A stretch of 61,167 bases of DNA from Nemertoderma westbladi (lineage: Eukaryota; Animalia; Xenacoelomorpha), in assembly GCA_032718475.1 (NCBI GenBank), contig JAUCBJ010007094.1, forward strand, positions 1 to 61,167, in the 5' to 3' direction. A program made the position numbers and the translations under genes. Shown here in pieces: positions 11,701-52,269 of this stretch. Under the pieces are notes generated by a model. It was given only the letters and a program-made list of their open reading frames with translations. It was not told the DNA's origin and did no database searches. Positions within the stretch are counted from its first letter, which is position 1. Each line of letters begins with the position of its first letter.

Positions 11701-11947
11701 GAAAGATCACTCACGGTGGTGAACAGGCATTCCTTTAGGAAACATAGTGGAAGGGTTTACTGTGGAAGATCACCCATGGTGGTGAACAGGCATTCCTTTA
11801 GGATACAGAGTGGAAGGGTTTTCTGTGGAAGATCATCCATGGTGGTGAACAGGCATTCCTTTAGGACACAGAGTGGAAGGGTTTACTGTGGAAGATCACT
11901 CACGGTGGTGAACAGGCATTCCTTTAGGAAACATAATGGAAGGGTTT
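8787..11947. repeat. 63-bp satellite array, left part
   Basis: Unit GGAAGATCACCCATGGTGGTGAACAGGCATTCCTTTAGGAAACAGAGTGGAAGGGTTTACTGT, about 50 copies, interrupted at 11947 by the LTR element. Confidence 0.97.
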
Positions 11948-12855
11948 TGTTCGCGCTTTCAGCGCAATGAATGTTGCGGATAATCGCATAAACTCTGAAT
12001 AATAAATATTACGCTACGCGTACAAACTACTCAAACAAAATACAGACCGAACACTGACAGACTACTATCAAGCCTAAACAAACTACGGTATATGCAGACT
12101 CCGAAATGATTAGGGAGTATGCGCTCTATCCCAGTAGTGCGACTTATTCTTTAGTTGGGGGTTTACCTTACAGCGTTCGCTGCCCCTACTGCCTAACCGT
12201 ACTTAATCGGACAGATGATCTACACACGCAGCAATCCGTTCAGACCTAATAACAGCCAGACAACTATCCAGCCTACAAATTATTTAAATAAAATTATACG
12301 CTACCCGTACAGACTTACACAAACAAAGTACAGACCAAACGATGGCAGACTACTCTCAAGCCTAAATAAACTACAGGACATGCAGACTCCGAAATGATTA
12401 GGGAGTATGCGCTCTAACCCAGTAGTGCGACTTATTCTTTAGTTGGGGGTTTACCTTACAGCGTTCGCTGCCCCTACTTCCTAACCGTACTTAATCGGAC
12501 AGGTGATCTACACACACTGCAACTCGTTCAGACTTAACAGCAATCAGACAACAGCTCAGCCTACAAATTGTCTGTACAATCTGATCAGGCTTACACGCCT
12601 TCTGTTCAATACTGGCCTACAAACAAATAAAACTTGACAGAAATAAGTAAAAATCTCAATAAAAAACCAGGGCGGGCCCTCCCTGATTAATTATTAAGGC
12701 CTACCGGTATATAACTATCAAAATCGAATAATACTGCTGTACCTGTACTGCTGTAGGTACCGGTCCGGGTGGTTAGGTAGTCAGGCCTACTGGGTACCGG
12801 TTGCCGGTACCTCAGCTTTATTGCCTACTGCAATACAGAGGCATATATCCTTTAA

Positions 12856-14057
12856 TGTTCGCGCTTTCAGACCTTTGGCAGTTTAACCCGCCAAATTAAG
12901 ATGTCTTCTAGATATTAAATCGCTTTTTAGCCTATGACAAGTATTTGATTCACTACACTAGTCGAAACCAATCCGTGCGCGACCATTCACCCGCTGGATA
13001 TTCCCGGGAGATTGGGTTCGACGGTTTAATTTTATTGCTATGTAAGTTTAATGTATTATTCGACTGACAGTATTATATAATCTCTGACAATATTATTTAC
13101 CTTCGGGAATATTAACAGTTCCTTTAGGACGTGGCGCTTTATCTATATAAACAGAGTTATGACTTAAACTACTCACAACGATATGGCTTAATTATAATTC
13201 ACATATATGGCGCATTCTTTAGGAATTGCTTCTTTAACAGACTCGCTCATACGCAATGCTGCACAATACTGCACACTAATCTGCCAATCTTCACTGATTT
13301 TAGTCACATATAAAAGGAACACAGACTGACTCATGTAGGGTCTATCAAATAACATTAGATTCACTTCAAACCACTTTAACATAAGTCACAATCGTTATTG
13401 GTAACCTTTCTCTCTTACCTTCGGTATATCAAGAATATTGGGTGTCGGGGTTATTTCTCGTTATTCCAATATAATAATTCATCAACAAATATAATGAATA
13501 ACCGACAACAAATAGCAGTATGCAGTATTCACAGATCAATCGTGCCAGTTTGTTTTGATATTTACAGAGTTTAAAGCCAGGTTGTTTGATGCGTAATTGC
13601 AGCCAGTTAAAGGATATATGTCCTTGTAATTAAACCTACTAGTGTTGAGCTAAAAAGCATAAAACATAAAACACTACAAAGCCGTTCTTTCGTGGCTTTG
13701 AAAAACTCGTGACTACTGCTCTATACGAGGATACCAACTCCCTTATTCCACGAAGCTCCCGTTCAACACAGAGAAAGAGCAGTGAGATAGGAAATTTTCA
13801 GTTCAGTACTCTGTGATAGGTCAAAATCAAGGCTAACTCAAATTCTATTGGGAGATACAAAACAAGGCTATGACGCAACCTCCCTAGGCTTGTTGGCCGA
13901 TTAAACAGAGCCCAGATGCCTGCGTACAGCAAATCAGCCAATAAGCTGGTAACTTGCACTATTTTTAGCTGTAGATCACTTTGAGAGTATTCTTAGCGAC
14001 TGGGGGGGAACTGGCCAACAAGGCAAACGAATCAGTTATCCCACAAAAGCTTTTACA
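12856..14057 (-). repeat. 3' LTR (1202 bp)
   Basis: Plus strand reads TGTTCGCG...GCTTTTACA. Matches 29129-30330 at a constant offset of 16273; I noticed one substitution by eye. Preceded on the minus strand by a purine-rich tract. Confidence 0.85.
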
Positions 14058-16344: not shown

Positions 16345-19300
16345 TTAAGTTGGGGAGTCCCTAGATGTCGGTTGGATTAGGGAAGTGGTCGTGGGAAGAG
16401 TTTCTTGCCTTCCATAGTTTCCGGAGAGCTCTCTGTCTCTTTCCAGTAAACATAAACGTCCCACTGGGCGATTGAGCTGTTGAGTCTCAAAGACTATCCC
16501 TGGTTTCTTAAAGTTCCGCCGCATGACGACGAGCTCTACTGATCGCACCAAACCATCGCTCGAGATATAAGTCTCGATGATACGTCCTGTTTGCCATCGC
16601 TTACGTGGGAGATCGGGGTCCACAATAAGCACCATGTCTCCCGCGCTGACGTTTTCTTGCTGCGCAAACCACTTAGTTCGAAGTTGTAGAGTGGGCAGGT
16701 AATGTTTCTCGAAATGGTCAGCGAAACGACGGGATAGCAACTGCATAAGTTGCCAGGTTCGACGGCAGTACTCGTCTCCGTCGGTGATCTCCGATCGTGG
16801 GAGCATGGCTACGGGCTTCTTCAGTAGAAAGTGCGCGGGTGTTAGCGCTTCCAGGGAATCAGGATTTGAAGAGACTGGCATAAGCGGTCTTTCGTTGAGA
16901 TAGGCGGCGATTTCCTCCATTAACGTCCGCAATAGTTCGTCGGTGAGATAAGCGCGACAAGGCACAATAAAGTGGAACGATCTCATCGTGTTACTGGTTC
17001 CGAAGCGAGCGATCTGTCGTCGTAAACTCAACACGAAGCTGTTGGTGGATAGATCGTTTACCATATCGAGATGGATAGCTCTACAAGTCATACAAACGAA
17101 GATGACACACCATCTCTTGACTATAGTCCGGGCACGATATACTTCAATAGGGCCAAATAAATCCACACCGGTATTAGTAAAGGGTGGTTCATAGAAGCTT
17201 ACTCTTTCCCTAGGTAATTCTGCCTCTCGCTGTGTTAAAGGCCTACTGAATGCTTTCCTACAGGGTATGCAGTTCCTAAGAACTTGGTTCAGAGCCCTAC
17301 GAGGTTTATAAAAATAGTAGCGAGTTCGAATTTCGCTAAGAACTCGTTCTCTTCCAGCATGATACAGTTTGCTATGAACATCTACAATCATCTTGATTTG
17401 TATGTCAAGATTTCTAATGAGGATGGGAAACTTAGTGTCAAAGGATAATGGAGCGTTGGTCAATCTATCTCCAACACGTATTAACCCATCTATCATGGTA
17501 CTAGAGAAGCGATCCCTTAAGCGCATCTGTGGATTTCTTAACAACAGTAAATACTTATCGGAATCCTCATAGCATTGTAGGAGTCTCAGCATCTGTTTGT
17601 TGGTTTCATCATGCTCCTGGTAACTGATCTTTTCCTTTAGAAACCTGTCGGGTATCTTGTATTTAGGAAGATCTTTAATAACATGGACTCGTGCAGATGT
17701 TGATGGAGCCTCATCACTATGAGTCTTTGTCCCGGAGTAACGATGATGAAAACATCGTTTCAAATAGGTAACCGCTTTACAGAGCCGATTCCAGGAACTG
17801 TAGTGACGTATCGCTCTCTGCAAGAGAGGTGAGAGTCCTTGCGAAATATCTGGTATTCCAGATTTCCAATCCTTGTCACGGATTTCCAAGACTTCTTTAG
17901 CCGTGGCAGTGGGTTTCTGATCCAAAGCATCATCTCCGGAAGTAAATAATACAGATAGATCAACCGCAGGTTTAAACAACTTCGATTTACTCGCTCGAGT
18001 TTTGGGTTTAACTTTCTCCGCTCCCTTGGCCTGTCTGATCTCTGCTGTTGTGAGATGGGGAGGCCATTCTTCTTCTTCCCTGTAGAGAAAGTCGGGTCCT
18101 CCTAACCATTCAGGAGTATTTACCAATTCCTTTGGAGTCGCTCCTCGGGACGCGATGTCTGCTGGATTAATCGTTCCGGGGCAATGTCTCCATTGGTCCA
18201 TCGTCGTGCGACTAAGTATGATGGCTACTCTGTTGGTAACGAAGACGCTGAACTGACAGACTTCATTGGTTATATACTCTAACACGAGTAAAGCGTCGGT
18301 CCAATAGACAGTTTTCTCTAATGGATAGTCAATCTGTTCGGCTACATTCCGGCCGATGGCTGTAGCGTATAGAGCCGCTTTTAACTCCGCTCGAGGAACT
18401 TTCAACTTGTTGTTGATTAATGCCTTAGAAGTAACCAAGGCGACTTTGATTCCATCCGGAGTTTCCACTCTTAGGTAGGCTACTATACCGATTCCCATAT
18501 CGCTGGCGTCTCCAAACACATGGAGTTGATAGGAATACGTAGGGAGAACATGACCAAAATATGAACGGGAAATTATAAAATCCTCGATCGCTGGTAGAGA
18601 ACCTTCCCATTTCATCCACTTCTTCAATAATTCTCCCTTAAGTGGATCGTCCCATGAGTGGTTTTCAAGCCACATTTGTTGTACCAAACTTCGAGCAATC
18701 AATATAACTGGGCTAATAAATCCCAATGGATCGAAATAAGTGCTCAGTATACTTAAGCAAATTCGTTTGGTTCGAACTGGATTATCTCGCTGTTTTAGTT
18801 GGAAAAACAGGATATCTCGCTCTGTGTCCCATTTCAAGCCGAGTGTCTTGGTCTCTGGCAGATCATCTTTGATCAAATCGAGATCTTTCGCTCCGCGATC
18901 TTCCGCAGGGATCGACTCCAGAAACTCACGGGAGTTGCTGGTGAATTTGGTTAATCGAAATCCACCTCTTTTTAAGCACTCTATCATTCCTTTAGCGACC
19001 TCAATGGCTTCCTCAACTGAAGGGAGGGACTTCAGATTGTCGTCCATGTATATGTCTTTTTTGATGTTGTCGATTACTTCCTTAGAGAATGCCTCTTGAT
19101 TGTCCTCTGCAGTAGTACGCACTACCGAACAGGCGTTGGAAGGGCTTGAGATTATCCCAAAGGCCTGGATGGTCATCCAGTACTCCACCGGTTTCTGGTT
19201 GAGGTCTCCTTCGGGCCACCATAGAAATCGTAAGCTATCCCGATCCCTATCCAACACTTTGACTTGTAAGAACATGCCTTCTATATCGGAGGCGAAAGCA

Positions 19301-20343
19301 ATCGAATATTGTCTCAATCTTAAAAGAATTCCCAACAAAGATTGAAGTAAGTTGGGTCCGGGTAACAGTTCAGAGTTAAGGGATTGACCCATGTAAAGAG
19401 CGGAGCCATCAAACACTACTCTCACTTCATTAGGTTTACCGGGTTTCGGAACGTAATGGTGAGTTAAATAATACGTTCTTTCAGTCACAGGTGTTTCTTC
19501 CGGTACCCTCTCCGCGTATCCCTTATTAATAAATTTTTCCAGCTGTGTTTGATACATTGCTTTAGCTGATGAATTAGCCGTAAGGCGTCGATGGAGTTGC
19601 GCGATTCTTTTTTCCGCCAAAGGTCTGTTATTGATGAACTTCGGTTCTTTCTTGCGGAAAGGTAAACCAACTTCATACCTACCTTGATCTTTGAGGAAAC
19701 ATGTAGTTGTCTCTTGGATCTGCTTGGCCCTTTCCTCTTCCACCGACAAGGCTTTATCGTAGGAATTGGGCTCTACCGCCTCTTGCGTAAAGAATCGTAC
19801 AGCATGTTCATCCCGAATCTTGGCATTATGACGCTCAATGACGTCATTTAACTCGTCGTTATAAGCTTCTCGTTCAGATGGATAGAGAAGTTGACATAAG
19901 TTCACTTGGTTTTGCCAAGCCTCGTTTTCCTTAAGGAGATCAATGGTATTCTCCTCATCAAAAAGCTGGTGAACATCGTCGTTATCTGAGGAGTATGGAA
20001 TTCCCTCAGTTGAATCGTCTCCCTCACTAGCATCATCTTCCCATTCACTCACCTGGTAGACTCTCTCTTGCGGCAGTCTTTCTCTGAGTGTTCTACGGGA
20101 AGGGCCAGTAAAGTACCAACCTACTCTAGTTCTTACCGCATAGGTCTGTAGGGGCTGCGGTTGAACAGGCCGTTTCTCTAACGTCTCCAGCGCCTCATGC
20201 GCGTTTTGGCCAATGAGTATTTGCACTCCAGGATAATCAGTCTGAAATCGAGGTATGTTAAGATGTTGGATGCTCTCATCCTCGTCCCAATTATAAAGGT
20301 CTGCTTGAGTAGTAGCGAAGTTCTTTATAGCCACCATTTTCAC
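16345..20343 (-). CDS. pol: BEL/Pao Pol (protease C-terminal half, RT, RNase H, integrase with deleted core)
   Basis: ILIGQN; YYLTHHYV..K..VRVVFDGS; SDIEGMFLQV; FGIISSP; YMDD; HVFGDAS; PRAEL; YWTD; WRHCPG..NPADIASRG; H-x4-H..C-x2-C; TGVDLFGP; LTPAHFL; GDMVLI. Confidence 0.92.
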   Translation of the reverse strand: MKMVAIKNFATTQADLYNWDEDESIQHLNIPRFQTDYPGVQILIGQNAHEALETLEKRPVQPQPLQTYAVRTRVGWYFTGPSRRTLRERLPQERVYQVSEWEDDASEGDDSTEGIPYSSDNDDVHQLFDEENTIDLLKENEAWQNQVNLCQLLYPSEREAYNDELNDVIERHNAKIRDEHAVRFFTQEAVEPNSYDKALSVEEERAKQIQETTTCFLKDQGRYEVGLPFRKKEPKFINNRPLAEKRIAQLHRRLTANSSAKAMYQTQLEKFINKGYAERVPEETPVTERTYYLTHHYVPKPGKPNEVRVVFDGSALYMGQSLNSELLPGPNLLQSLLGILLRLRQYSIAFASDIEGMFLQVKVLDRDRDSLRFLWWPEGDLNQKPVEYWMTIQAFGIISSPSNACSVVRTTAEDNQEAFSKEVIDNIKKDIYMDDNLKSLPSVEEAIEVAKGMIECLKRGGFRLTKFTSNSREFLESIPAEDRGAKDLDLIKDDLPETKTLGLKWDTERDILFFQLKQRDNPVRTKRICLSILSTYFDPLGFISPVILIARSLVQQMWLENHSWDDPLKGELLKKWMKWEGSLPAIEDFIISRSYFGHVLPTYSYQLHVFGDASDMGIGIVAYLRVETPDGIKVALVTSKALINNKLKVPRAELKAALYATAIGRNVAEQIDYPLEKTVYWTDALLVLEYITNEVCQFSVFVTNRVAIILSRTTMDQWRHCPGTINPADIASRGATPKELVNTPEWLGGPDFLYREEEEWPPHLTTAEIRQAKGAEKVKPKTRASKSKLFKPAVDLSVLFTSGDDALDQKPTATAKEVLEIRDKDWKSGIPDISQGLSPLLQRAIRHYSSWNRLCKAVTYLKRCFHHRYSGTKTHSDEAPSTSARVHVIKDLPKYKIPDRFLKEKISYQEHDETNKQMLRLLQCYEDSDKYLLLLRNPQMRLRDRFSSTMIDGLIRVGDRLTNAPLSFDTKFPILIRNLDIQIKMIVDVHSKLYHAGRERVLSEIRTRYYFYKPRRALNQVLRNCIPCRKAFSRPLTQREAELPRERVSFYEPPFTNTGVDLFGPIEVYRARTIVKRWCVIFVCMTCRAIHLDMVNDLSTNSFVLSLRRQIARFGTSNTMRSFHFIVPCRAYLTDELLRTLMEEIAAYLNERPLMPVSSNPDSLEALTPAHFLLKKPVAMLPRSEITDGDEYCRRTWQLMQLLSRRFADHFEKHYLPTLQLRTKWFAQQENVSAGDMVLIVDPDLPRKRWQTGRIIETYISSDGLVRSVELVVMRRNFKKPGIVFETQQLNRPVGRLCLLERDRELSGNYGRQETLPTTTSLIQPTSRDSPT

Positions 20344-23300
20344 TTACCTGATGCTGTGTTCTCCTAGTTCGTCTTGTGGGGTGGACAACGCGCCTACATA
20401 ATAATCAGCTGTTATTGTAGATTTCCAAACTTGCATTATGCCAGACATGTTGAGCTTAGTTTGGAACTTGAGTTGTCCAGCAAATATATCTTCGGCTAGC
20501 TCTTTGTCGATGAATGTTCCTGTACTACCGGAGTCGAGGAGGGCGTTCACTACATAACTCCTCTTAGGTCCGTGAACCCTCACCTGCACCACAGGAAACT
20601 CTCGGATCCCTACATTTGAAGATGGCTCTTTCCAAGATGGTTGTCGTTCAGAAGTAGTTAGAGTAAAGTCGTTGTCTGGATCCTTTTCATATGTGAGTGC
20701 TCGATACACTGCGGTATTTATCATGTAACAGGATTCGTTTTCGTCGGAGAACTCATCTGTATAGAATCCTTCCATCTCAGATTGATCAGTGTCGTTCACA
20801 TCACTGAATTGGACATGTAACTCGGAATCACTTACCTGATTCGGACTATTTCGATCGAATTCAGCGTGCAACAAGATATGATGTTTCGCACCACACTTTG
20901 CACATCTTATGTCCGAGAAACAGGTTCGCCGTTGGTGTCCTTGTCTGAGGCAATTATAACATAACCGCTTATCCCACATAACTTCGCGTCTCTCCGTTAA
21001 TGATTTCTTTAGAAATTCATCACACCTATTCAAATAGTGGGTCCCGTCACACAGCGCACATTTTGATTTGATGTTACTTACCTTATTCTGAGTCACATTG
21101 TGTACACTTGCCCTTTCTTCGGGTTTTCTCACCTGAATTCTCTTGGGAGACGTGGGAGGAGTTTTTCTTACCTGTTCCCTCCTGTCATTTGTTCGAGACT
21201 TAAATTTACTTACCTGATCTTTAGGCATTTTATTCACGTAATAAGATCTATCCGTGTCCTTCCCGCTATCTTCTCCTTGAGAAGTCTGGCTTTCGCCGTC
21301 ATCGGTATAACATACTGGTGTTATTTTTCTCCTAGAGACGGGTTTTTCACTTACCTTGTTTTCCGGTGTTTTCTCCCTAGACTGTTTCAGGAGCTGTAAT
21401 TTCACTTCTCCATCTAGGAATGACATGAGATCAGCCATGGTAGGGTCTCGCCGTTGTTGTTCCATCATATATAACACTTTCTTATCCCAGCGTGTACCTA
21501 CTCCACCTTTAGGTAAAGTAGAAGCCACTGCTCTAATAACCATAGTGTTCTGATACTCATGAGACTTACCTAGCCAGTCTAATTGTCTGCAGATCTCCTG
21601 GATCTCATCGGAAAACTCGATAATTCCGCTACTAATAAACTTTCGGGGCGCTACTAACTTGGCATACAAGTACCCAGCGATATTATTCCTATTACCATAC
21701 CTGATGTTTAGTGTATCCCAAACTTGTCTTAATCCGTCTGGATGTCCAATAAACTTTAACGCCATTAACTTGGGAGATCCTTCCAAGCACTCGATGAGGT
21801 ATCTAAGTTTTTCTCCATTAGATAGTACAGAGTTCTGTATGTTATCTTTGTAATATTCATTAAAAGGTAACCATTTCATCTCATCTCCATTGAACTTGAC
21901 GATCTCTCCAACCTTTACCGCTTGCCGGGCTTCGGTTCTAGCCATTTGACGCGTAAAACTTTCTTGGGCCATCGTGCTATTTAATATCGAGTTATCGGTA
22001 TATAAATTTCTCGGATTATGATCAGTTCTATAGGGAATATCATTATCAACAGGTCTATAATTACCCTTAATAGGGTTCACTATAGGAGTTTCTACTTCGC
22101 TAGCAGTATAAATGCGTGTAGGCTCCACACCTTGCGCATGCGATACTTCAGACCTAACAGGTTGACACATTGTTACAGAGGGTGGTGGTATACCTTTTTG
22201 AGTATTTACTAATTTATCGCGTTCTAGCGCGATACTTTGCTGCACTTCTTGCAACTCTAGCCTACTTTCCCTTACTGTGCCCTTGAACTGCTGGACAGTC
22301 TCCTGCATCTGTCCGAACAGGATATCCATCCCCCGCCGTCTCTCGTCCACCCATTCGACCGCCGAAGCGGGAGTCGCCAACGTTGTAGCGGGCGGACGAG
22401 GGACAACGGGCGACAAATTGTGAATATTTCGCTCGGGGTCCAGGACCTGAACTGTCTCCTGGGCAGTTCTGCGGGGCACAGGTAGCTTAGTGCTATGCAG
22501 AGGGAATTTAGAGGTAGTTTCAGGGAGCACAGGTGTGTCTATCACCGAAGGGGTGATTTCAAGAACAGGCCTAATTATTTCAGGCTCATCTAATATAGTA
22601 GGGAGTCTTTCTATTTTAATTATTTGGTCTGTGGGCTCTGTACTACCTAAGTTGGTGTTACTTAGTTGCCTTCTAACAGCTGGAGGCAAATCAGGCAATT
22701 TCTGACGGTGGAATGTTCTTTTACGTCTGCTTAGACGAGATCTATTTCCTTTGCCTTCAGTATCGGTGGTATCGCCTTCCTCAGATGATGTATAACCTTG
22801 TCGTTTGGGAGTAGATCGATTCATCATCTGCATATTACTAGCTGTTAACTGTTTATTAAAGTTATCTTGCCTCTCTTGAAGATTTTCCAACTCTAGTTGG
22901 GTTGTCTCTTCAGATGCCCTCCGTTCTGCTTCTGCCACTGCCTCCGCCGCTTTTGCCTCTGCCGCTGCCTCTGCTGCTGCCACTTTTCTTTCTGCTTCTG
23001 CAGCTGCCACTGCCGCTGCTACTGTCGCTTTTGCTTCTGCCACTGCCTCCGCCGCTTTTGCCTCTGCCGCTGCCTCTGCCGCTGCAGCTTTTGCCTCTGC
23101 CGCTGCCTCTGCCGCTGCCGCTTTTCTTTCTGCTTCTGCAGCTGCCACTGCTGCTGCTACTGCCGCTGCCTTTCTGTCTTCTATACGTTTTTTCTTTACT
23201 TGTTCTTCTTGGTCTCTAGCGATGCGGAGTTGTTCATCGAATTTAGCTTGGTTCGCCGCTAACCTATCCACATCAATTGCATCCAACACACGCTGGGCTC

Positions 23301-24345
23301 CTTCACTATTAGGGCTAAGCCCATCTAGTCTTCTCCGCAACTCTTCATCACCTACGAAACGCTGATAGTCTGACAGATAGATGTCAATGGCATCCCTCTT
23401 ATGCGGTTTCTCTGCCGTCGCTTCACTTTCCACTTGGGAAAAAGTAGCGTCTGTTGATTCTCCATGGGTTGAGCGCTCCTCCAACTGAGCTTTCCACTGA
23501 GCTGCTCCTTGAACCTGGCGACTCACCCGTTGAAACCAAGTCTTTACGGCAACTTGCAACGACGTGTCTTGCCTTCTTTTAGAAGCCTCCTCAAAGGCGG
23601 ATAAGATTAGCCTAATCCGCAGAACTCTTTCTCTAACTTGATAAAGCAGCGATCCCTGCTCTTGAGGTCCTTGAGGTTGTTTAAACAGTTGTCTTTCTAC
23701 TCGCTCCATAGAGCTGAAGAATCCCTGTGCGTATCCGGCTGCTGACCTCTTCCACACAGCTGGATCGATGGTTTCCTTGGCTACTCCCATCCGGTGTATG
23801 TCTTCCCAGGCAGCTTCTGATAAATCAAACGGGAATCCGGGTCCGGGGAAGTTCCATTGCGACTCGACAATAGACTTCAGTTCTTCACTAGTGTATCCCG
23901 CGTAGCTATCTCTAGTTGACCGTTGACTTCTCGCCCAATCGATCTGGTGTTCTTCCACCGCGATCAATAACCCAGCGAGCACGGCTGCAGGAAGGATGAG
24001 AAGGGGATCCGTATAAACCGCATCCGTCATCTCTGCTCCGCTCTCGGGTGTCAGCTCTACAGTATCCTCACTACTGGAGCTGCTGGGCCGCTGAGGAATA
24101 AGTTCTTGACTAGTGGGTTGTTGCTGTTCCGCTGCCTTTTGGTCCCGCTTGACCTGAGCTCGAGTGCCTATGATAGACCTACGATGTTGGACCAGCCTAG
24201 GTTCTGTTATTACTACTGGAGGGATGACCTTCCTCACAGTGGGAGGTGAACTGGATTTACGACCAGACGGTTGTACGTCTCTATCTGAGTCGCAGATAGT
24301 TACATCTAATAAACTGTCTGACAGGTTCTGCTTAGTATCAGACAT
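20344..24345 (-). CDS. gag: BEL/Pao Gag plus protease N-terminal half (1333 aa)
   Basis: Pao capsid-like FNGD..W..F..EKLRYL..CLEG. Knuckles CALCDGTHYLNRC, CYNCLRQGHQRRTC and CAKCGAKHHILLH. Aspartic protease motif ALLDSGS. Confidence 0.92.
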   Translation of the reverse strand: MSDTKQNLSDSLLDVTICDSDRDVQPSGRKSSSPPTVRKVIPPVVITEPRLVQHRRSIIGTRAQVKRDQKAAEQQQPTSQELIPQRPSSSSSEDTVELTPESGAEMTDAVYTDPLLILPAAVLAGLLIAVEEHQIDWARSQRSTRDSYAGYTSEELKSIVESQWNFPGPGFPFDLSEAAWEDIHRMGVAKETIDPAVWKRSAAGYAQGFFSSMERVERQLFKQPQGPQEQGSLLYQVRERVLRIRLILSAFEEASKRRQDTSLQVAVKTWFQRVSRQVQGAAQWKAQLEERSTHGESTDATFSQVESEATAEKPHKRDAIDIYLSDYQRFVGDEELRRRLDGLSPNSEGAQRVLDAIDVDRLAANQAKFDEQLRIARDQEEQVKKKRIEDRKAAAVAAAVAAAEAERKAAAAEAAAEAKAAAAEAAAEAKAAEAVAEAKATVAAAVAAAEAERKVAAAEAAAEAKAAEAVAEAERRASEETTQLELENLQERQDNFNKQLTASNMQMMNRSTPKRQGYTSSEEGDTTDTEGKGNRSRLSRRKRTFHRQKLPDLPPAVRRQLSNTNLGSTEPTDQIIKIERLPTILDEPEIIRPVLEITPSVIDTPVLPETTSKFPLHSTKLPVPRRTAQETVQVLDPERNIHNLSPVVPRPPATTLATPASAVEWVDERRRGMDILFGQMQETVQQFKGTVRESRLELQEVQQSIALERDKLVNTQKGIPPPSVTMCQPVRSEVSHAQGVEPTRIYTASEVETPIVNPIKGNYRPVDNDIPYRTDHNPRNLYTDNSILNSTMAQESFTRQMARTEARQAVKVGEIVKFNGDEMKWLPFNEYYKDNIQNSVLSNGEKLRYLIECLEGSPKLMALKFIGHPDGLRQVWDTLNIRYGNRNNIAGYLYAKLVAPRKFISSGIIEFSDEIQEICRQLDWLGKSHEYQNTMVIRAVASTLPKGGVGTRWDKKVLYMMEQQRRDPTMADLMSFLDGEVKLQLLKQSREKTPENKVSEKPVSRRKITPVCYTDDGESQTSQGEDSGKDTDRSYYVNKMPKDQVSKFKSRTNDRREQVRKTPPTSPKRIQVRKPEERASVHNVTQNKVSNIKSKCALCDGTHYLNRCDEFLKKSLTERREVMWDKRLCYNCLRQGHQRRTCFSDIRCAKCGAKHHILLHAEFDRNSPNQVSDSELHVQFSDVNDTDQSEMEGFYTDEFSDENESCYMINTAVYRALTYEKDPDNDFTLTTSERQPSWKEPSSNVGIREFPVVQVRVHGPKRSYVVNALLDSGSTGTFIDKELAEDIFAGQLKFQTKLNMSGIMQVWKSTITADYYVGALSTPQDELGEHSIR

Positions 24346-26575
24346 GACTAGGTATGTACAGTTGAATGCCTACTGCTATATTACAGTCTAAGCAAGTCTA
24401 GTAACTCAGTATGAACTGCTAGCCTAGTAATTAATTACCGTTACTGCTACTCAGTGTAGCGTGATATATATATAATATATTAGAATACCGGTATACTTAT
24501 AGTATATATAACTATATAAGTATTATTACAGACTAGGTTTATCACAGAATACCGGTATAATTTTAGCACAAATATATATAAATATATAATAGGCCTATCG
24601 GAATACCGGTATACAGCTTACAGTTTGTAGGATATATAATTCTGAAATAGAATTAATTACAAGTACCGGTATAATTTCAGCCTAGATTTATAGAAATAAA
24701 GATAATAGGCCTATCGTAAATACCGGTATATCAATTATTTCAAATAATTGAATTTCTGTTACTTTAGGGTTACTTTGTTACTTTACTTACTTTATTACCG
24801 TTATTTGAGCAGTAATCCAACTGATATTGGGACCTAATGGTTGTATGGTAGGCCTACTATTTATAAATCGTTAGATTTGATTTATAATATATATATACCC
24901 GTTTTAATGGGTTTTGTCAATGTTTGAAATAAATGTTATTATTTCTGGGGGTAATCACTACACAAAGCGGTGCGCTTTCAATGAAGTGTTACTTATGAGA
25001 CACTAAAACAAATAATACTAATTTACCTAAGTTACTTAATACTACAAATTACGTACAATTCGGGTGAGATTACAATCTCTAAATAAACACAAAAATTTAC
25101 AAAAACACAAATACGAATTTTTAGGGTAATTTTACAAGAAGTCTACAAACCAGCCTAACAAAGGGTTAGATAACCGGTTATTACAACGGACAGAGTACTA
25201 CGGTATTTGAAATAATAAGTAGTAGTAAATACACTGCGTTGTCTAGATAGGAAAATACCACCGCCTGACGACCTATAGCCGTATCGCTATAGGTTCTACG
25301 TTATGTATCACGGAGTGTTCCTACCTAGAAGTTAATAGAGCTAATCGAATGTGCCTATCAACCACTTTACAACACAAATATAATGCCTACACTAATTATT
25401 CTCGGAAAGCACTGTACACTAAACCCTAAATTAGGTACGAGTACTTGTACAACAGATAATCAGTAATTAAATATACTTGAACAGCTAAAAGAACCACGGC
25501 ATCTGCTGGAGTGACCGATGCACAAAATCACCAGTCTTTACCTACGCCAAGCAGCCCGTGTAGTACCGAGGTTAATTTAACTATAGCGGTATGTATAACA
25601 AACACAATTACTGTAGGAACAAACTTGGGGACTTGAATGTTGCGAATAATCGCATAAACTCTGAATAATAAATATTACGCTACGCGTACAAACTACTCAA
25701 ACAAAATACAGACCGAACACTGACAGACTACTATCAAGCCTAAACAAACTACGGTATATGCAGACTCCGAAATGATTAGGGAGTATGCGCTCTAACCCAG
25801 TAGTGCGACTTATTCTTTAGTTGGGGGTTTACCTTACAGCGTTCGCTGCCCCTACTGCCTAATCGTACTTAATCGGACAGATGATCTACACACGCGGCAA
25901 TCCGTTCAGACTTAATAACAGCCAGACAACTATCCAGCCTACAAATTATTTAAATAAAATTATACGCTACCCATACAGACTTACACAAACAAAGTACAGA
26001 CTAAACGATGGCAGACTACTCTCAAGCCTAAATAAACCACAGGACATGCAGACTCCGAAATGATTAGGGAGTATGCGCTCTAACCCAGTAGTGCGACTTA
26101 TTCTTTAGTTGGGGGATTACCTTACAGCGTTCACTGCCCCTACTGCCTAATCGTACTTAATCGGACAGGTGATCTACACACACTGCAATTCGTTCGGACT
26201 TAACAGCAATCAGACAACAGCTCAGCCTACAAATCGTCTGTACAATCTGATCAGGCTTACACGCCTTCTGTTCAATACTGGCCTACAAATAAATAAAACT
26301 TGACAGAAATAAGTAAAATCTCAATAAAAAATCAGGGCGGCCGTTCCCTGATTAAGTACTAAGACCTACCGGTATACAACAATCAAATCGAATAATACTA
26401 GTGTACTTATACGGAAGTACCGGTTAGGACAGCTAGGCCTACGGAATACAGAAGTACCGGTTCTAGCGGTTGGGCCTACTGACTACTGACCTACAGATGT
26501 ACCGGTTCAGGTTTACCGGTTGACCGGTACTTTCAACTTTATTGCTTACTGCAACAAAGAAGCTATATCCTTTAA

Positions 26576-27807
26576 TGTTCGCGCTTTCAGACCTTTGGCA
26601 GTTTAACCCACCAAATTAAGATGTCTTCTAGATATTAAATCGGTTTTTAGTCTATGACAAGTATTTGATTCACTACACTAGTCGAAACCAATCCGTGCGC
26701 GACCATTCACCCGCTGGATATTCCCGGGAGATTGGGTTCGACGGTTTAATTTTATTGCTATGTAAGCTTAATGTATTATTCGACTGACAGTATTATATAA
26801 TCTCTGTCAATATTATTCACCTTCGGTAATATTAACAGTTCCTTTAGGACGTGGCGCTTTATCTACATAAACAGAGTTATGACTTAAACTACTCACAACG
26901 ATATGGCTTAATTATAATTCACATATATGGCGCATTCTTTAGGAATGCTTCTTTAACAGACTCACTCATACACAATGCTGCACAATACTGCACACTAATC
27001 TGCCGATCTTCACTGATTTTAGTTACATATAAAAGGAACACAGACTGGCTCATGTAGGGTCTATCAAATAACATTAGATTCACTTCAAACCACTTTAACA
27101 TAAGTCACAATCGTTTATCTGTAACCTTTCTCTCTTACCTTCGGTATATCAAGAATATTGGGTTTCGGGGTTATTTCTCGTTATTCCAAATATAATTATT
27201 CATCAACCATATTATGAAGAACTGACAGTAAATAGCAGTATAAAACAACAACTGAACACTGATTGTTATGAGTTTGCAATGTTTCAGCAGTCAGGATGTA
27301 TAATCATCAGTCAGCAGTAGTCGTTAGGTTAAAGGATATATGCCCTTTATAATTAAACCTACTAGTGTAAGACTAAAAAACAGTAAAGCACAAAATACTT
27401 CCAAGCCGTTCTTTCTTTGGCTCAGGACTGAATGTAAACACTGCACATAGGCATTGCGTCATTTCTCGGAAATTTTCTGTACAAGGAGCCACAAAAACGC
27501 TCCAATTGGCTGACTGAACTGAGAGACGCCGTAGAACAAAGGAAATCAACACGTATGAATGTCAGCTGTTAACCGTAGTCATAGTAACTACTGTTCAAGA
27601 GTAGCTATCACCCCTTTGCGTCACGAATTGCCATAGAATCATAAAATATGCCTTTCACAGTACACATACGGAGGAAATAGGTCTTAGATCCTCTAAAAAC
27701 ACCGATACAGCAATAATACGGTCTCTTACACTTATTAAATCAACTACAGAGTATTTTAATGTAAAAGATAATAAAAATAACGGGGCAATTCAGCAAAGGC
27801 TTTTACA
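26576..27807 (-). repeat. Internal variant LTR (1232 bp)
   Basis: Same termini (TGTTCGCG...GCTTTTACA). The U5-side ~650 bp is highly similar to the outer LTRs, while the U3-side ~390 bp does not align apart from the tip. Confidence 0.85.
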
Positions 27808-29128
27808 TACGGTATTTGAAATAATAAGTAGTAGTAAATACACTGCGTTGTCTAGATAGGAAAATACCACCGCCTGACGACCTATAGCCGTATCGCTATA
27901 GGTTCTACGTTATGTATCACGGAGTGTTCCTACCTAGAAGTTAATAGAGCTAATCGAATGTGCCTATCAACCACCTTACAACACAGATATAATGTCTACA
28001 CTAATTACTTCGGAAAGTACTGTAGACTAAACCCTAAATTAGGTACGAGTACTTGTATAACAGATAATCAGTAGTTAAATATACTTGAACAGCTAAAAGA
28101 ACCACGGCATCTGCTGGAGTGACCGATGCACAAAATCACCAGTCTTTACCTACGCCGAGCAGCCCGTATAGTACCGGGGTTAATTTAACTATAGCGGTAT
28201 GTATAACAAACACAATTACTGTAGGAACAAACTTAGGGAATGAATGTTGCGGATAATCGCATAAACTCTGAATAATAAATATTACGCTACGCGTACAAAC
28301 TACTCAAACAAAATACAGACCGAACACTGACAGACTACTATCAAGCCTAAACAAACTACGGTATATGCAGACTCCGAAATGATTAGGGAGTATGCGCTCT
28401 ATCCCAGTAGTGCGACTTATTCTTTAGTTGGGGGTTTACCTTACAGCGTTCGCTGCCCCTACTGCCTAACCGTACTTAATCGGACAGATGATCTACACAC
28501 GCAGCAATCCGTTCAGACCTAATAACAGCCAGACAACTATCCAGCCTACAAATTATTTAAATAAAATTATACGCTACCCGTACAGACTTACACAAACAAA
28601 GTACAGACCAAACGATGGCAGACTACTCTCAAGCCTAAATAAACTACAGGACATGCAGACTCCGAAATGATTAGGGAGTATGCGCTCTAACCCAGTAGTG
28701 CGACTTATTCTTTAGTTGGGGGTTTACCTTACAGCGTTCGCTGCCCCTACTTCCTAACCGTACTTAATCGGACAGGTGATCTACACACACTGCAACTCGT
28801 TCAGACTTAACAGCAATCAGACAACAGCTCAGCCTACAAATTGTCTGTACAATCTGATCAGGCTTACACGCCTTCTGTTCAATACTGGCCTACAAACAAA
28901 TAAAACTTGACAGAAATAAGTAAAAATCTCAATAAAAAACCAGGGCGGGCCCTCCCTGATTAATTATTAAGGCCTACCGGTATATAACTATCAAAATCGA
29001 ATAATACTGCTGTACCTGTACTGCTGTAGGTACCGGTCCGGGTGGTTAGGTAGTCAGGCCTACTGGGTACCGGTTGCCGGTACCTCAGCTTTATTGCCTA
29101 CTGCAATACAGAGGCATATATCCTTTAA

Positions 29129-30330
29129 TGTTCGCGCTTTCAGACCTTTGGCAGTTTAACCCGCCAAATTAAGATGTCTTCTAGATATTAAATCGCTTTT
29201 TAGCCTATGACAAGTATTTGATTCACTACACTAGTCGAAACCAATCCGTGCGCGACCATTCACCCGCTGGATATTCCCGGGAGATTGGGTTCGACGGTTT
29301 AATTTTATTGCTATGTAAGCTTAATGTATTATTCGACTGACAGTATTATATAATCTCTGACAATATTATTTACCTTCGGGAATATTAACAGTTCCTTTAG
29401 GACGTGGCGCTTTATCTATATAAACAGAGTTATGACTTAAACTACTCACAACGATATGGCTTAATTATAATTCACATATATGGCGCATTCTTTAGGAATT
29501 GCTTCTTTAACAGACTCGCTCATACGCAATGCTGCACAATACTGCACACTAATCTGCCAATCTTCACTGATTTTAGTCACATATAAAAGGAACACAGACT
29601 GACTCATGTAGGGTCTATCAAATAACATTAGATTCACTTCAAACCACTTTAACATAAGTCACAATCGTTATTGGTAACCTTTCTCTCTTACCTTCGGTAT
29701 ATCAAGAATATTGGGTGTCGGGGTTATTTCTCGTTATTCCAATATAATAATTCATCAACAAATATAATGAATAACCGACAACAAATAGCAGTATGCAGTA
29801 TTCACAGATCAATCGTGCCAGTTTGTTTTGATATTTACAGAGTTTAAAGCCAGGTTGTTTGATGCGTAATTGCAGCCAGTTAAAGGATATATGTCCTTGT
29901 AATTAAACCTACTAGTGTTGAGCTAAAAAGCATAAAACATAAAACACTACAAAGCCGTTCTTTCGTGGCTTTGAAAAACTCGTGACTACTGCTCTATACG
30001 AGGATACCAACTCCCTTATTCCACGAAGCTCCCGTTCAACACAGAGAAAGAGCAGTGAGATAGGAAATTTTCAGTTCAGTACTCTGTGATAGGTCAAAAT
30101 CAAGGCTAACTCAAATTCTATTGGGAGATACAAAACAAGGCTATGACGCAACCTCCCTAGGCTTGTTGGCCGATTAAACAGAGCCCAGATGCCTGCGTAC
30201 AGCAAATCAGCCAATAAGCTGGTAACTTGCACTATTTTTAGCTGTAGATCACTTTGAGAGTATTCTTAGCGACTGGGGGGGAACTGGCCAACAAGGCAAA
30301 CGAATCAGTTATCCCACAAAAGCTTTTACA
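29129..30330 (-). repeat. 5' LTR (1202 bp)
   Basis: Direct repeat of 12856-14057; abuts the TSD GGTTT. Confidence 0.88.
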
Positions 30331-33300
30331 GGTTTACTGTGGAAGATCACTCACGGTGGTGAACAGGCATTCCTTTAGGAGACATAGTGGAAGCGTTTAC
30401 TGTGGAACATCACCCATGGTGGTGAAAAGGCATTCCTTTAGGACACAGAGTGGAAGGGTTTACTATGGAAGATCACCCATGGTAGTGAACAGGCATTCCT
30501 TTGGGAAACAGAGTAGAAGGGTTTACTATGGTAGATCACCCATGGTGGTTAACAGGCATTCCTTTGGGAAACAGAGTAGAAGGGGTTACTGTGGAAGATT
30601 ACCCATGGTGGTGAACAGGCATTCCTTTAGGAAACAGAGTGGAAGGGTTTACTGTGGAAGATCACCCATGGTGGTGAACAGAAATTCCTTTAGGAAACAG
30701 AGTGGAAGGGTTTACTGTGGAAGATCACCCATGGTGGTGAATAGGCATTCCTTTAGGAAACAGAGTGGAAGGGTTTACCGTGGAAGATCACCAATGGTGG
30801 TGAACAGGCATTCCTTTAAGAAACAGAGTGGAAGGGTTTACTGTGGAAGATCACCAATGGTGGTGAACAGGCATTCCTTTAGAAAACAGAGTGGAAGGGT
30901 TTACTGTGGAAGATCACCCATGGTGGTGAACAGGCATTCCTTTAGGATACAGAGTGGAAGGGTTTACTGTGGAAGATCGCTCACGGTGGTGAACAGGCAT
31001 TCCTTTAGGAAACATAGTGGAAGCGTTTACTGTGGAACATCACCCATGGTGGTGAAAAGGCATTCCTTTAGGACACAGAGTAGAAGGGTTTACTGTGGAA
31101 GATCACTCACGGTGGTGAACAGGCATTCCTTTAGGAAACAGAGTAGAAGGGTTTACTATGGAAGATCACCCATGGTAGTGAACAGGCATTCCTTTGGGAA
31201 ACAGAGTAGAAGGGTTTACTATGGTAGATCACCCATGGTGGTTAACAGGCATTCCTTTGGGAAACAGAGTGGAAGGGTTTTCTGTGGAAGATCATCCATG
31301 GTGGTGAACAGGAATTCCTTTAGGAAACAGAGTGGAAGGGTTTACTGTGGAAGATCACCCATGGTGGTGAACAAGCATTCCTTTGGGAAACAGAGTGGAA
31401 GGGTTTAGTGTGGAAGATCATCCATGGTGGTGAATAGGAATTCCTTTAGGAAACAGAGCGGAAGGGTTTACTGTGGAAGATCACCCATGGTGGTGTACAG
31501 GCATTCCTTTAAGAAACAGAGTGGAAGGGTTTACTGTGGAAGATCACCAATGGTGGTGAACAGGCATTCCTTTAGGATACAGAGTGGAAGGGTTTTCTGT
31601 GGAAGATCACTCACGGTGGTGAACAGGCATTCCTTTAGGAAACAGAGTAGAAGGGTTTACTATGGAAGATCACCCATGGTAGTGAACAGGCATTCCTTTG
31701 GGAAACAGAGTAGAAGGGTTTACTATGGTAGATCACCCATGGTGGTTAACAGGCATTCCTTTAGGAAACAGAGTGGAAGGGTTTACTGTGGAAGATCATC
31801 CATGGTGGTGAACAGGAATTCCTTTAGGAAACAGAGTGGAAGGGTTTACTGTGGAAGATCACCCATGGTGGTGAACAAGCATTCCTTTGGGAAACAGAGT
31901 GGAAGGGTTTTCTGTGGAAGATCACTCACGGTGGTGAACAGGCATTCCTTTAGGAAACATAGTGGAAGGGTTTACTGTGGAAGATCACCCATGGTGGTGA
32001 ATAGGCATTCCTTTAGGAAACAGAGTGGAAGGGTTTTCTGTGGAAGATCACTCACGGTGGTGAACAGGCATTCCTTTAGGAAACAGAGTAGAAGGGTTTA
32101 CTATGGAAGATCACCCATGGTAGTGAACAGGCATTCCTTTGGGAAACAGAGTAGAAGGGTTTACTATGGTAGATCACCCATGGTGGTTAACAGGCATTCC
32201 TTTGGGAAACAGAGTGGAAGGGTTTTCTGTGGAAGATCATCCATGGTGGTGAACAGGAATTCCTTTAGGAAACAGAGTGGAAGGGTTTACTGTGGAAGAT
32301 CACCCATGGTGGTGAACAAGCATTCCTTTGGGAAACAGAGTGGAAGGGTTTAGTGTGGAAGATCATCCATGGTGGTGAATAGGAATTCCTTTAGGAAACA
32401 GAGCGGAAGGGTTTACTGTGGAAGATCACCCATGGTGGTGTACAGGCATTCCTTTAAGAAACAGAGTGGAAGGGTTTACTGTGGAAGATCACCAATGGTG
32501 GTGAACAGGCATTCCTTTAGGATACAGAGTGGAAGGGTTTTCTGTGGAAGATCACTCACGGTGGTGAACAGGCATTCCTTTAGGAAACATAGTGGAAGGG
32601 TTTACTGTGGAAGATCACCCATGGTGGTGAATAGGCATTCCTTTAGGAAACAGAGTGGAAGGGTTTACTGTGGAAGATCACCAATGGTGGTGAACAGGCA
32701 TTCCTTTAGGAAACAGAGTGGAAGGGTTTACTGTGGAAGATCATCCATGGTGGTGAACAGGAATTCCTTTAGGAAACAGAGTGGAAGGGTTTACTGTGGA
32801 AGATCACCCATGGTGGTGAACAAGCATTCCTTTGGGAAACAGAGTGGAAGGGTTTTCTGTGGAAGATCACTCACGGTGGTGAACAGGCATTCCTTTAGGA
32901 AACATAGTGGAAGGGTTTACTGTGGAAGATCACCCATGGTGGTGAATAGGCATTCCTTTAGGAAACAGAGTGGAAGGGTTTTCTGTGGAAGATCACTCAC
33001 GGTGGTGAACAGGCATTCCTTTAGGAAACCCAGTGGAAGGGTTTACTGTGGAAGATCACCCATGGTGGTGAATAGGCATTCCTTTAGGAAACAGAGTGGA
33101 AGGGTTTTCTGTGGAAGATCACTCACGGTGGTGAACAGGCATTCCTTTAGGAAACAGAGTAGAAGGGTTTACTATGGAAGATCACCCATGGTAGTGAACA
33201 GGCATTCCTTTGGGAAACAGAGTAGAAGGGTTTACTATGGTAGATCACCCATGGTGGTTAACAGGCATTCCTTTGGGAAACAGAGTGGAAGGGTTTTCTG

Positions 33301-34218
33301 TGGAAGATCATCCATGGTGGTGAACAGGAATTCCTTTAGGAAACAGAGTGGAAGGGTTTACTGTGGAAGATCACCCATGGTGGTGAACAAGCATTCCTTT
33401 GGGAAACAGAGTGGAAGGGTTTAGTGTGGAAGATCATCCATGGTGGTGAATAGGAATTCCTTTAGGAAACAGAGCGGAAGGGTTTACTGTGGAAGATCAC
33501 CCATGGTGGTGTACAGGCATTCCTTTAAGAAACAGAGTGGAAGGGTTTACTGTGGAAGATCACCAATGGTGGTGAACAGGCATTCCTTTAGGATACAGAG
33601 TGGAAGGGTTTTCTGTGGAAGATCACTCACGGTGGTGAACAGGCATTCCTTTAGGAAACATAGTGGAAGGGTTTACTGTGGAAGATCACCCATGGTGGTG
33701 AATAGGCATTCCTTTAGGAAACAGAGTGGAAGGGTTTACTGTGGAAGATCACCAATGGTGGTGAACAGGCATTCCTTTAGGAAACAGAGTGGAAGGGTTT
33801 ACTGTGGAAGATCATCCATGGTGGTGAACAGGAATTCCTTTAGGAAACAGAGTGGAAGGGTTTACTGTGGAAGATCACCCATGGTGGTGAACAAGCATTC
33901 CTTTGGGAAACAGAGTGGAAGGGTTTTCTGTGGAAGATCACTCACGGTGGTGAACAGGCATTCCTTTAGGAAACATAGTGGAAGGGTTTACTGTGGAAGA
34001 TCACCCATGGTGGTGAATAGGCATTCCTTTAGGAAACAGAGTGGAAGGGTTTTCTGTGGAAGATCACTCACGGTGGTGAACAGGCATTCCTTTAGGAAAC
34101 ATAGTGGAAGGGTTTACTGTGGAAGATCACCCATGGTGGTGAACAGGCATTCCTTTAGGAAACAGAGTAGAAGGGTTTACTGTGGAAGATCACCCATGGT
34201 GGTGAACAGGCATTCCTT
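30331..34218. repeat. 63-bp satellite array, right part, with higher-order structure
   Basis: About 61 copies, resuming in phase after the TSD. A diagnostic TAG variant recurs at 31408, 32353 and 33424. Confidence 0.97.
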
Positions 34219-41285: not shown

Positions 41286-41892
41286 AGAAGATCACCCATC
41301 ATGGTGGTGAACAGGCACTCCTTTAGGAAACAGAGTGGAAGGGTTTACTGTGGAAGATCAGCCATGGTGGTGAACATGCATTCCTTTGGGAAACAGAGTG
41401 GAAGGGTTTACTGTGGAAGATCAGCCATGGTGGTAAACAGGCATTCCTTTTGGAAACAGAGTGGAAGGGTTTACTGTGGAAGATCAGCCATGGTGGTGAA
41501 CAGGCATTCCTTTTGGAAACAGAGTGGAAGAGTTTACTGTGGAAGATCACCCATGGCAGTGAACAGGAATTCCTTTAGGAAACAGAGTGGAAGGATTTAC
41601 TGTGGAAGATCACCCATGGTGGTGAACAGGCGTTCCTTTAGGAAACATAGTGGAGGGGTTTATTGTGGAAGATCACCCATGGCATGGTGGTGAACAGGCA
41701 TTCCTTTAGGAAACAGAGTGGAAGAGTTACTGTGGAAGATCACCCATGGTGGTGAACAGGCATTCCTTTGGGAAACATAGTAGAAGAATTTGCTGTGGAA
41801 GATGACCCATGCAGTGAACAGGAATTCCTTTAGGAAACAGAGTGGAAGGGTTTATTGTGGAAGATCACCCATGGTGGTGAAAAGGAATTCCC
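41286..41892. repeat. 63-bp satellite, short diverged array (about 9.5 units) in the rx intron
   Basis: Same unit as the 8787-34218 array, with more indels. Confidence 0.95.
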
Positions 41893-52250: not shown

Positions 52251-52269
52251 AATAATTAATACCTTAATA

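What the first reader, a model, noticed from the sequence alone, without database searches (positions are those of the whole stretch)
29115..29893. Candidate tRNA-independent self-priming in a BEL/Pao retrotransposon
Seen: directly after the 5' LTR the element strand reads ..GCGCGAACA|TTAAAGGATATATG (29128-29115), with no TGG tRNA-type PBS. Its exact 14-nt complement CATATATCCTTTAA lies inside the LTR (29893-29880), and pairing extends further across one bulge. The same pair occurs at 12842-12855/13607-13620 and, as 12 bp, in the variant LTR (26564-26575/27329-27340). There the motif ends a conserved ~85-nt block flanked by divergent sequence. The 3' end of the paired strand sits right at the LTR tip, the correct geometry for priming. 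Known: S. pombe Tf1 (Ty3/Gypsy) self-primes from its RNA 5' end; BEL/Pao elements are generally described as tRNA-primed, and I know of no self-priming case. Inference: the element's own R-region RNA acts as primer, either a cleaved 5' segment or the transcript's 3' end.
Basis: partly seen in the sequence, partly recalled or inferred. Interest (0 to 1): 0.88.

Follow-up and report, generated by a model that had tools for sequence, protein, structure and literature searches.

The report
Self-priming signature in BEL/Pao retrotransposon
A BEL/Pao jumping gene has no tRNA landing site where its DNA copying must begin; the 14 letters there pair exactly with a stretch of its own terminal repeat, and distant relatives keep such pairing with different letters, often only across a predicted splice joint, so it likely starts copying itself with a piece of its own RNA.

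Summary
Confirmed. A BEL/Pao element (minus strand, 30330-11948, 5-bp target duplication) has no TGG after its LTR; the 14 nt there are the exact complement of LTR 29893-29880 (1 of 2000 shuffles). A nested variant LTR keeps the pairing (12 nt; 21 bp with two bulges in both) while neighbouring sequence diverges to about 43%. The 12842/13607 pair is a near-identical copy, not independent. Among 13 distant relatives with readable LTR ends, 8 match their site only across a predicted GT..AG intron junction inside the LTR (10-13 nt, 0 of 500 shuffles each), 2 match contiguously (one weakly), and 3 have TGG sites and no clear self-match. Self-priming is therefore likely. A 5' fragment is favoured over the transcript's 3' end, since AATAAA lies 571 nt downstream. 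Against or open: no RNA reads, host tRNAs unavailable, and the helix is predicted only if the RNA starts within about 35 nt of the motif. It works like Tf1 but is no Tf1/sushi member; ICTV lists BEL/Pao as tRNA-primed. This scan found the same signature, splice junction included, in other genomes before; I reached it here first, on other DNA.

The parts
29129..30330 (-). 5' LTR (type A), 1202 bp, TG...CA
   Evidence: AAACC lies directly outside (30335-30331)
29115..29128 (-). Non-tRNA primer-binding site, 14 nt, flush with the LTR tip; pairing extends to about 29107
29880..29893 (-). Exact complement of the site inside the LTR (LTR nt 438-451): predicted 3' end of the self-primer; also the loop and 3' arm of a weak local hairpin (-3.5 kcal/mol)
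29880..29918 (-). Core of the conserved block (95% identical between LTR types); predicted body of the primer RNA
29919..29964 (-). 5' part of the block (78%): U-rich tract ending in AG at 29923, acceptor-like or promoter element; its inclusion abolishes the predicted helix
   Evidence: tract+AG also seen in loose ends of runs X1 and X5
29298..29309 (-). AATAAA/ATTAAA, predicted poly(A) signal, also in the variant LTR (26756)
26576..27807 (-). Nested variant LTR (A'), 1232 bp; upstream part unrelated except the 9-nt tip; motif kept at 27342-27329
26564..26575 (-). Variant primer-binding site, 12 nt perfect, 21 bp with bulges
20344..24345 (-). gag-protease ORF: DUF1759, three Cys/His knuckle-like motifs and a DSG motif read from the translation
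16345..20343 (-). pol ORF: RT (YMDD), Pao domain PF05380, integrase zinc domain, DUF5641; same frame as ORF1 behind one stop; about 50-70 residues missing in the integrase core relative to three relatives
12856..14057 (-). 3' LTR (type A), preceded by a purine-rich tract; 1 mismatch to the 5' LTR; motif at 13620-13607
11948..12855 (-). Aberrant 3' extension: 890-nt copy of the leader (with the site, 12855-12842), 3 extra bases, then the last 15 nt of the LTR; AAACC follows

Best explanation
This BEL/Pao retrotransposon has no tRNA-type site after its LTR and likely primes minus-strand DNA synthesis with a piece of its own RNA, whose predicted 3' end is the 14-nt LTR motif. Shown: the site sits flush with the LTR tip, its exact complement lies 751 nt upstream inside the LTR, and both are kept between two LTR types whose neighbouring sequence has diverged. 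Inferred steps: (1) the genomic RNA begins, by transcription start or by processing, within about 35 nt upstream of the motif (about 29928-29893); (2) this 5' segment folds onto the site as a 14-bp core plus a short second helix; (3) the RNA is cut just after the motif, probably by the element's RNase H as in Tf1, giving a primer of some 14-50 nt; (4) RT copies U5 and R back to the cut, then jumps to the 3' LTR, from which motif and promoter are inherited. In most readable relatives the same pairing arises only after an LTR intron is removed; this element would be an intron-less form of that design.
For: Exact 14-nt match, 1 of 2000 shuffles; 0 of 11,117 internal positions. Identity profile A vs A': site 100%, core 95%, flanks 42-48%. 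In public DNA contigs the family is abundant and variable; summed depth is 335,649 at 29896 against 5,882 at 29857 in run X1, and in X3 other variants rejoin this copy at 29881. Relatives from 80 loci: 8 of 13 with readable LTR ends match only across a GT[AG]AG..YAG junction, 0 of 500 shuffles each; 3 of 13 have TGG and 4-7 nt of self-match. Blind scans: 7 of 10 further loci put the best junction match (10-15 nt) 0-5 nt after a CA/TA. Ten different junction-type site sequences in all, six of them outside the set from which I drew the idea. The related trio L037, L044, L051 changes site and LTR motif together. A complement to an exon-exon junction cannot come from a DNA inversion (inference). 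Predicted helix probability 0.91-1.0 across 751 nt for RNA starts at 29928-29893.
Against: No RNA-level evidence: only contigs could be laid. Host tRNAs and small RNAs could not be searched (no genome held). The helix is not predicted (0.00-0.01) if the RNA starts at 29938 or further upstream, including the start of the 85-nt block; forcing it costs 4.3 kcal/mol. In relatives the predicted core pairing was 0.75 or more in only 5 of 9, and 0.0 in 2. L037's contiguous match is weak (30 of 1000 shuffles), no better than TGG-type L039 (31 of 1000). The cross-control gave two 10-nt false matches (L023 site vs L005/L079 LTRs). Relatives are distant (at most 46% identity) and this element is a long, unstable branch, so their behaviour is analogy, not close-family proof. 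Introns in relatives are predicted from sequence only. This copy's pol is broken, so it is probably not autonomous.
Confidence: 0.76

Rival explanations
1. Trans-acting self-primer: a separate short RNA from any LTR of the family (including solo LTRs), ending at the motif, is packaged and anneals to the site. Still tRNA-independent, but no cis fold and no RNase H cut.
For: The loop is 751 nt, longer than in the relatives folded (90-329 nt). The block is conserved as an island, and the family is very abundant. The cis helix is not predicted for longer 5' ends.
Against: No terminator or poly(A) signal near 29880; no Rfam match at the block; the cis helix is predicted for short 5' ends.
Confidence: 0.1
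2. A host RNA primes, most plausibly a half-molecule tRNA-Lys cut in the anticodon loop, as for fungal FunCo1 copia elements; the LTR match then serves structure or regulation.
For: The FunCo1 site ATTAAGAGTCT (PMC5445492, passage) shares its first five letters with LTR-tip+site here, and the next letters fit a UUU anticodon register (my inference from tRNA anatomy). Host tRNAs could not be checked.
Against: That register would give about 8 bp with one wobble and then fail, and it uses the LTR's last base, against 14 perfect self pairs. Ten-plus different site sequences in relatives each follow their own LTR, which one host RNA cannot explain.
Confidence: 0.07
3. The transcript's own 3' end (R ending at the motif copy, 13607) loops back and primes.
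For: The conserved block ends sharply at the motif (43% identity right after it).
Against: AATAAA/ATTAAA lies 571 nt downstream in both LTR types and none lies just upstream of the motif; a poly(A) tail would need removal; in relatives the match ends 5-10 nt into a downstream exon, mid-LTR.
Confidence: 0.04
4. The pairing is real but not a primer: an LTR-leader helix for packaging, dimerisation or splice control, or the relic of a small inversion.
For: Priming is not shown; the motif also forms a local hairpin in both LTR types.
Against: The match starts 0-5 nt from the LTR tip in every positive case and is absent or weak where a TGG site exists; no other primer candidate is at hand.
Confidence: 0.03

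Closest known systems
Tf1/Tf2 of Schizosaccharomyces pombe and the Tf1/sushi group (Ty3/gypsy), including Tcn1
   Same: No tRNA site; the site pairs with the element's own LTR-derived RNA. In Tf1 the first 11 bases pair and RNase H cuts between bases 11 and 12 (PMC7175516, passage).
   Different: Different superfamily (BEL/Pao domains). 14-bp core plus second helix, 751-nt loop; the primer need not be the first bases of the RNA. In relatives the pairing is built across a predicted intron junction, not mentioned for Tf1 in the passages I saw.
Plant TAR lineage (Houba, Osr-1; Ty1/copia), predicted self-priming
   Same: Called by the same criterion: 10 nt or more of LTR complement starting 0-5 nt after the LTR (PMC6317226, passages). 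This element meets it.
   Different: Ty1/copia of plants, contiguous match only; a prediction there too.
Belpaoviridae / Semotivirus as described by ICTV
   Same: Gag, PR, RT, RH, IN order; LTR of 1.2 kb; purine tract before the 3' LTR.
   Different: ICTV gives an 18-nt site complementary to the 3' end of tRNA-Arg or tRNA-Gly (PMC8742986, whole text); insect Achilles has a tRNA-Tyr site (PMC4580426, passage). Absent here. The unit is 18.4 kb because of a nested LTR and a long leader.
Half-tRNA-primed copia elements (FunCo1, Osser, Bianca) and fungal GalEa hairpin site
   Same: No TGG after the LTR.
   Different: Those use internal tRNA regions, or a hairpin with no LTR complement (PMC5445492, PMC6317226, passages); here a perfect LTR complement exists.

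Membership tests
BEL/Pao (Belpaoviridae) | Pao-type pol and gag domains in the order Gag-PR-RT-RH-IN | tested here: met
   PF03564, PF05380, PF17921, PF18701; top hits carry the same families; motifs read
BEL/Pao (Belpaoviridae) | TG...CA LTRs, target duplication, purine tract | tested here: met
BEL/Pao (Belpaoviridae) | 18-nt site complementary to a tRNA 3' end (ICTV description) | tested here: not met
   no TGG within 40 nt; 3 of 13 readable relatives do have one. Family membership rests on pol, so this marks a variant
BEL/Pao (Belpaoviridae) | Named clade (Suzu, Sinbad, Pao, BEL, Tas and others) | not tested
Tf1/sushi group | Ty3/gypsy chromovirus-type pol | tested here: not met
   Pfam and homologues are BEL/Pao
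Tf1-type self-priming (mechanism) | Site next to the LTR complementary over 10 nt or more to LTR sequence, no tRNA site | tested here: met
   14 nt at offset 0
Tf1-type self-priming (mechanism) | Complement is the 5' end of the transcript | not testable with these tools
   no raw RNA reads; folding only predicts a start at 29928-29893
Tf1-type self-priming (mechanism) | RNase H cut creates the primer 3'-OH | not testable with these tools
   needs biochemistry
Half-tRNA priming | Site complementary to an internal tRNA region | tested here: inconclusive
   partial resemblance to the FunCo1 site; host tRNAs not held; none in the window or in 15 of 80 loci scanned
Splice-built self-primer (seen in relatives; earlier scan notes) | Complement split by a GT..AG intron in the LTR | tested here: not met
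   no junction match in A or A'; the motif is contiguous. Whether other family copies carry an intron is open

The most novel reading that the evidence does not exclude
A large share of BEL/Pao elements prime with their own RNA and let the host spliceosome build the primer. In this element the splice has moved upstream: removing the U-rich tract at the conserved AG at 29923 (cis- or trans-splicing) would be the switch that lets the primer helix form, turning an mRNA into a replication-competent genome.
Probability: 0.2. Interest if true: 0.9.

Novelty: new variant of a known kind. Interest (0 to 1): 0.72.

Why it matters
BEL/Pao is described as tRNA-primed, with replication 'poorly understood' (ICTV profile). 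Self-priming would add a third LTR superfamily to this mode and would explain BEL/Pao elements in which no primer site is found. It would free them from tRNA supply and tRNA-fragment defence (inference). In the relatives it would tie host splicing directly to primer formation. The prediction is sharp and cheap to test: RNA 5' ends at 29928-29893, a 3' end at 29880, and element RNA on strong-stop DNA.

Tried and rejected
No whole genome is held, so no host tRNA search and no survey of family copies. No RNA holder listed (one run is only guessed to be RNA); contigs cannot show RNA ends. A close look at within-family variation inside the motif was not obtained, so intron-bearing family copies and in-family compensatory changes remain open. 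The motif pattern was not found in metagenome contigs; no relatives in viral contigs; no Rfam family at the block. Contiguous complement in the first five relatives was not significant (6-8 nt), which led to the junction test. One search (29 loci, relaxed rules) gave four artefact rows from a script overrun (L051 split row, L058, L018, L027) and several weak rows, all dropped; its contiguous hits (L007, L034, L051, L075) had LTR ends chosen by the scan, so their shuffle counts (6, 2, 2, 0 of 1000) are optimistic. L063 and L002 were negative in the blind scan (L002's 5' LTR is truncated). 47 of 80 loci were examined; the other 33 were not. Removing candidate introns downstream of the motif did not rescue the helix. 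No donor conserved between A and A' was found for the AG at 29923. 'LTR = the whole 2092-bp repeat' rejected: no terminal CA/TGG at its inner end, and the element's true end is GCGCGAACA. Loose ends at 30331 are satellite contigs, not evidence of targeting. Literature: searches; the term 'bel pao' scored zero occurrences and probably misses 'BEL/Pao', so those two say nothing on BEL. No listing or passage seen described BEL/Pao self-priming. Four older papers were not held. Recalled and unverified: reports on C. elegans Cer elements with odd LTRs and a self-encoded tRNA-like primer, which could lower novelty. Repbase and GyDB could not be searched; no supplements were read.

Full report
Anatomy. 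The finding lies in an LTR retrotransposon on the minus strand. It starts with TG at 30330, ends with GCGCGAACA at 11948, and is flanked on both sides by AAACC inside a 63-bp satellite. Two same-frame ORFs carry DUF1759, the Pao domain PF05380, an integrase zinc domain and DUF5641; the 120 listed homologues carry the Pao domain at 38-44% identity. It is a BEL/Pao element. One stop separates the ORFs and about 50-70 residues of the integrase core are missing against three relatives, so this copy is probably not autonomous. The LTR is 30330-29129 (1202 bp). A variant LTR (27807-26576) is nested in the leader. The 3' end carries the LTR, 890 nt of leader, 3 extra bases and the last 15 nt of the LTR; the 2092 shared bases differ at one position.

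Observation. All coordinates hold. No TGG lies within 40 nt of either LTR end. The 14-nt match was reached in 1 of 2000 shuffles and the variant's 12-nt match in 2 of 2000; 0 of 11,117 internal positions reach 14 nt. Both duplexes extend to 21 bp over two bulges with partly different letters. Between the two LTR types identity is 42% upstream, 78% at 29964-29919, 95% at 29918-29880, 43% just after the motif, 97% in the last 616 bp, 100% in the first 12 nt of the site and 48% further into the leader. The pair at 12842/13607 is a copy and adds nothing. In public contigs (four runs laid) the family is abundant and variable; summed depth in run X1 is 335,649 at 29896 and 5,882 at 29857, and contigs of run X3 with another sequence downstream rejoin at 29881. 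The motif is thus an island shared by variants; depth is not a copy number.

Relatives. A metagenome scan gave 80 loci. In 13, both LTR ends could be read (L005's end was taken from same-family L002, L044's end is uncertain). Most lacked TGG, yet contiguous LTR complements in the first five were only 6-8 nt. Reading those LTRs I noticed a GTAAG..YAG intron whose exon junction matches the site. Tested on all 13: 8 match across such a junction over 10-13 nt, each in 0 of 500 shuffles; 2 match contiguously (L044 12 nt, 0 of 1000; L037 10 nt, 30 of 1000, weak); 3 have TGG sites with 4, 4 and 7 nt of self-match (791, 964 and 31 of 1000). Five of the 8 gave me the idea, so they are not an independent test. 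In the cross-control, sites matched foreign LTRs only within the same type, apart from two 10-nt false matches. Blind scans of 10 further loci, without a preset LTR end and without shuffles, put the best junction match (10-15 nt) 0-5 nt after a CA or TA in 7; one gave a contiguous 10-nt match at offset 0, and two were negative. This makes ten different junction-type site sequences, six of them new to the idea. A relaxed scan of 29 loci added contiguous 11-nt matches in L034, L051 and L075, with LTR ends chosen by the scan, and produced artefact rows that I dropped. L037, L044 and L051 fall in one supported clade and change site and motif together. On the RT-RNase H tree self-matching rows are spread widely, the TGG rows sit in two other groups, and the window element is a long branch (1.56) of unsure place.

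Mechanism. A complement to an exon-exon junction exists only in RNA and cannot arise by DNA inversion; its position at the LTR tip, and its absence or weakness where a tRNA site exists, point to priming (inference). For the window element the motif is contiguous. AATAAA lies 571 nt downstream in both LTR types, so the motif is unlikely to be the RNA's 3' end. Folding predicts the helix across 751 nt with probability 0.91-1.0 when the RNA starts at 29928-29893, but 0.00-0.01 from 29938 upstream; the variant gives 0.70-1.0 within 31 nt, 0.29-0.41 at 36-46 nt and about 0 beyond. The switch coincides with the 95% core and with a U-rich tract ending in AG at 29923, also seen in loose ends of runs X1 and X5; no conserved donor was found. 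In nine relatives the predicted core pairing was 0.75 or more in 5, 0.54 and 0.17 in two, and 0.0 in two, so folding is only a guide. Best reading (0.76): the RNA's 5' segment pairs with the site, is cut after 29880, probably by RNase H, and primes. A trans-acting short RNA (0.10), a host RNA such as a half tRNA-Lys (0.07), a 3'-end primer (0.04) and a non-priming helix (0.03) remain. None of the steps from RNA start to extension is shown.

Known systems. Tf1 self-primes with its first 11 bases after an RNase H cut (PMC7175516, passage); Tcn1 and plant TAR elements are predicted to, by a criterion this element meets (PMC6317226, passages). The element works like these but is not a member: its pol is BEL/Pao. 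ICTV describes Belpaoviridae as primed by tRNA-Arg or tRNA-Gly (PMC8742986, whole text); Achilles has a tRNA-Tyr site (PMC4580426, passage). Term look-ups found no mention of tRNA or PBS in PMC554778, PMC3118150 and PMC8556966. Passages of PMC3601003, PMC5443660, PMC5445492, PMC3286476, PMC8220671 and PMC13524379 did not describe BEL self-priming. Ten searches listed no such report, but two used a term that probably misses 'BEL/Pao', subscription papers are not held, and I recall, unverified, older C. elegans reports of odd BEL LTRs and a self-encoded primer.

Earlier scan notes. Six notes on other genomes describe the same signature, three with the splice junction; none matched this sequence or genome. 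My junction test came before I saw them. They are unchecked AI notes and are not counted as support; one (e1-7809694) reports intron-less copies within an intron-bearing family, which fits my reading but is untested here.

Verdict. New variant of a known kind; interest 0.72.

Noticed in passing
window 12855-11948: The 3' LTR is followed by 890 nt of leader, 3 extra bases and the last 15 nt of the LTR, then the target duplication. It reads like an early template jump after about 15-18 nt of minus-strand synthesis, which would put the start of synthesis at the LTR tip; a deletion in a tandem dimer is the alternative.
   Followed up: partly
window 27807-25199: A second LTR with an unrelated upstream part sits inside the leader, so the unit is LTR-leader-LTR'-internal-LTR; probably a nested insertion followed by recombination.
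   Followed up: partly
window 20350-20340: The single in-frame stop between the two ORFs lies in a splice-donor-like context; most relatives have one continuous ORF.
   Followed up: no
window 29691, 29449, 29373, 29416, 29101: Donor-like and acceptor-like sites downstream of the motif in the LTR and just after the site.
   Followed up: partly
window 14716-14339 and 14299-14084: Two small sense ORFs (125 and 71 aa) in the 2.3-kb region between pol and the 3' LTR.
   Followed up: no
window 8787-11947, 30331-34218, 41300-41891: 63-bp satellite into which the element inserted.
   Followed up: no
window 7527-8646 / 42055-43227 and 52267-53169: Repeats with long inverted arms, MITE-like.
   Followed up: no
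L005, L009, L017, L029, L031, L036, L047-L049, L051, L079 and others: Most self-matching sites in relatives begin with GT, so the predicted primer ends in AC, often followed by C; many show a core, a primer-side bulge and a short second helix.
   Followed up: partly
L073 405-420: A BEL/Pao relative with the TGGTAGCAGAGC site that PMC5445492 gives as the tRNA-Met site of GalEa copia elements.
   Followed up: no
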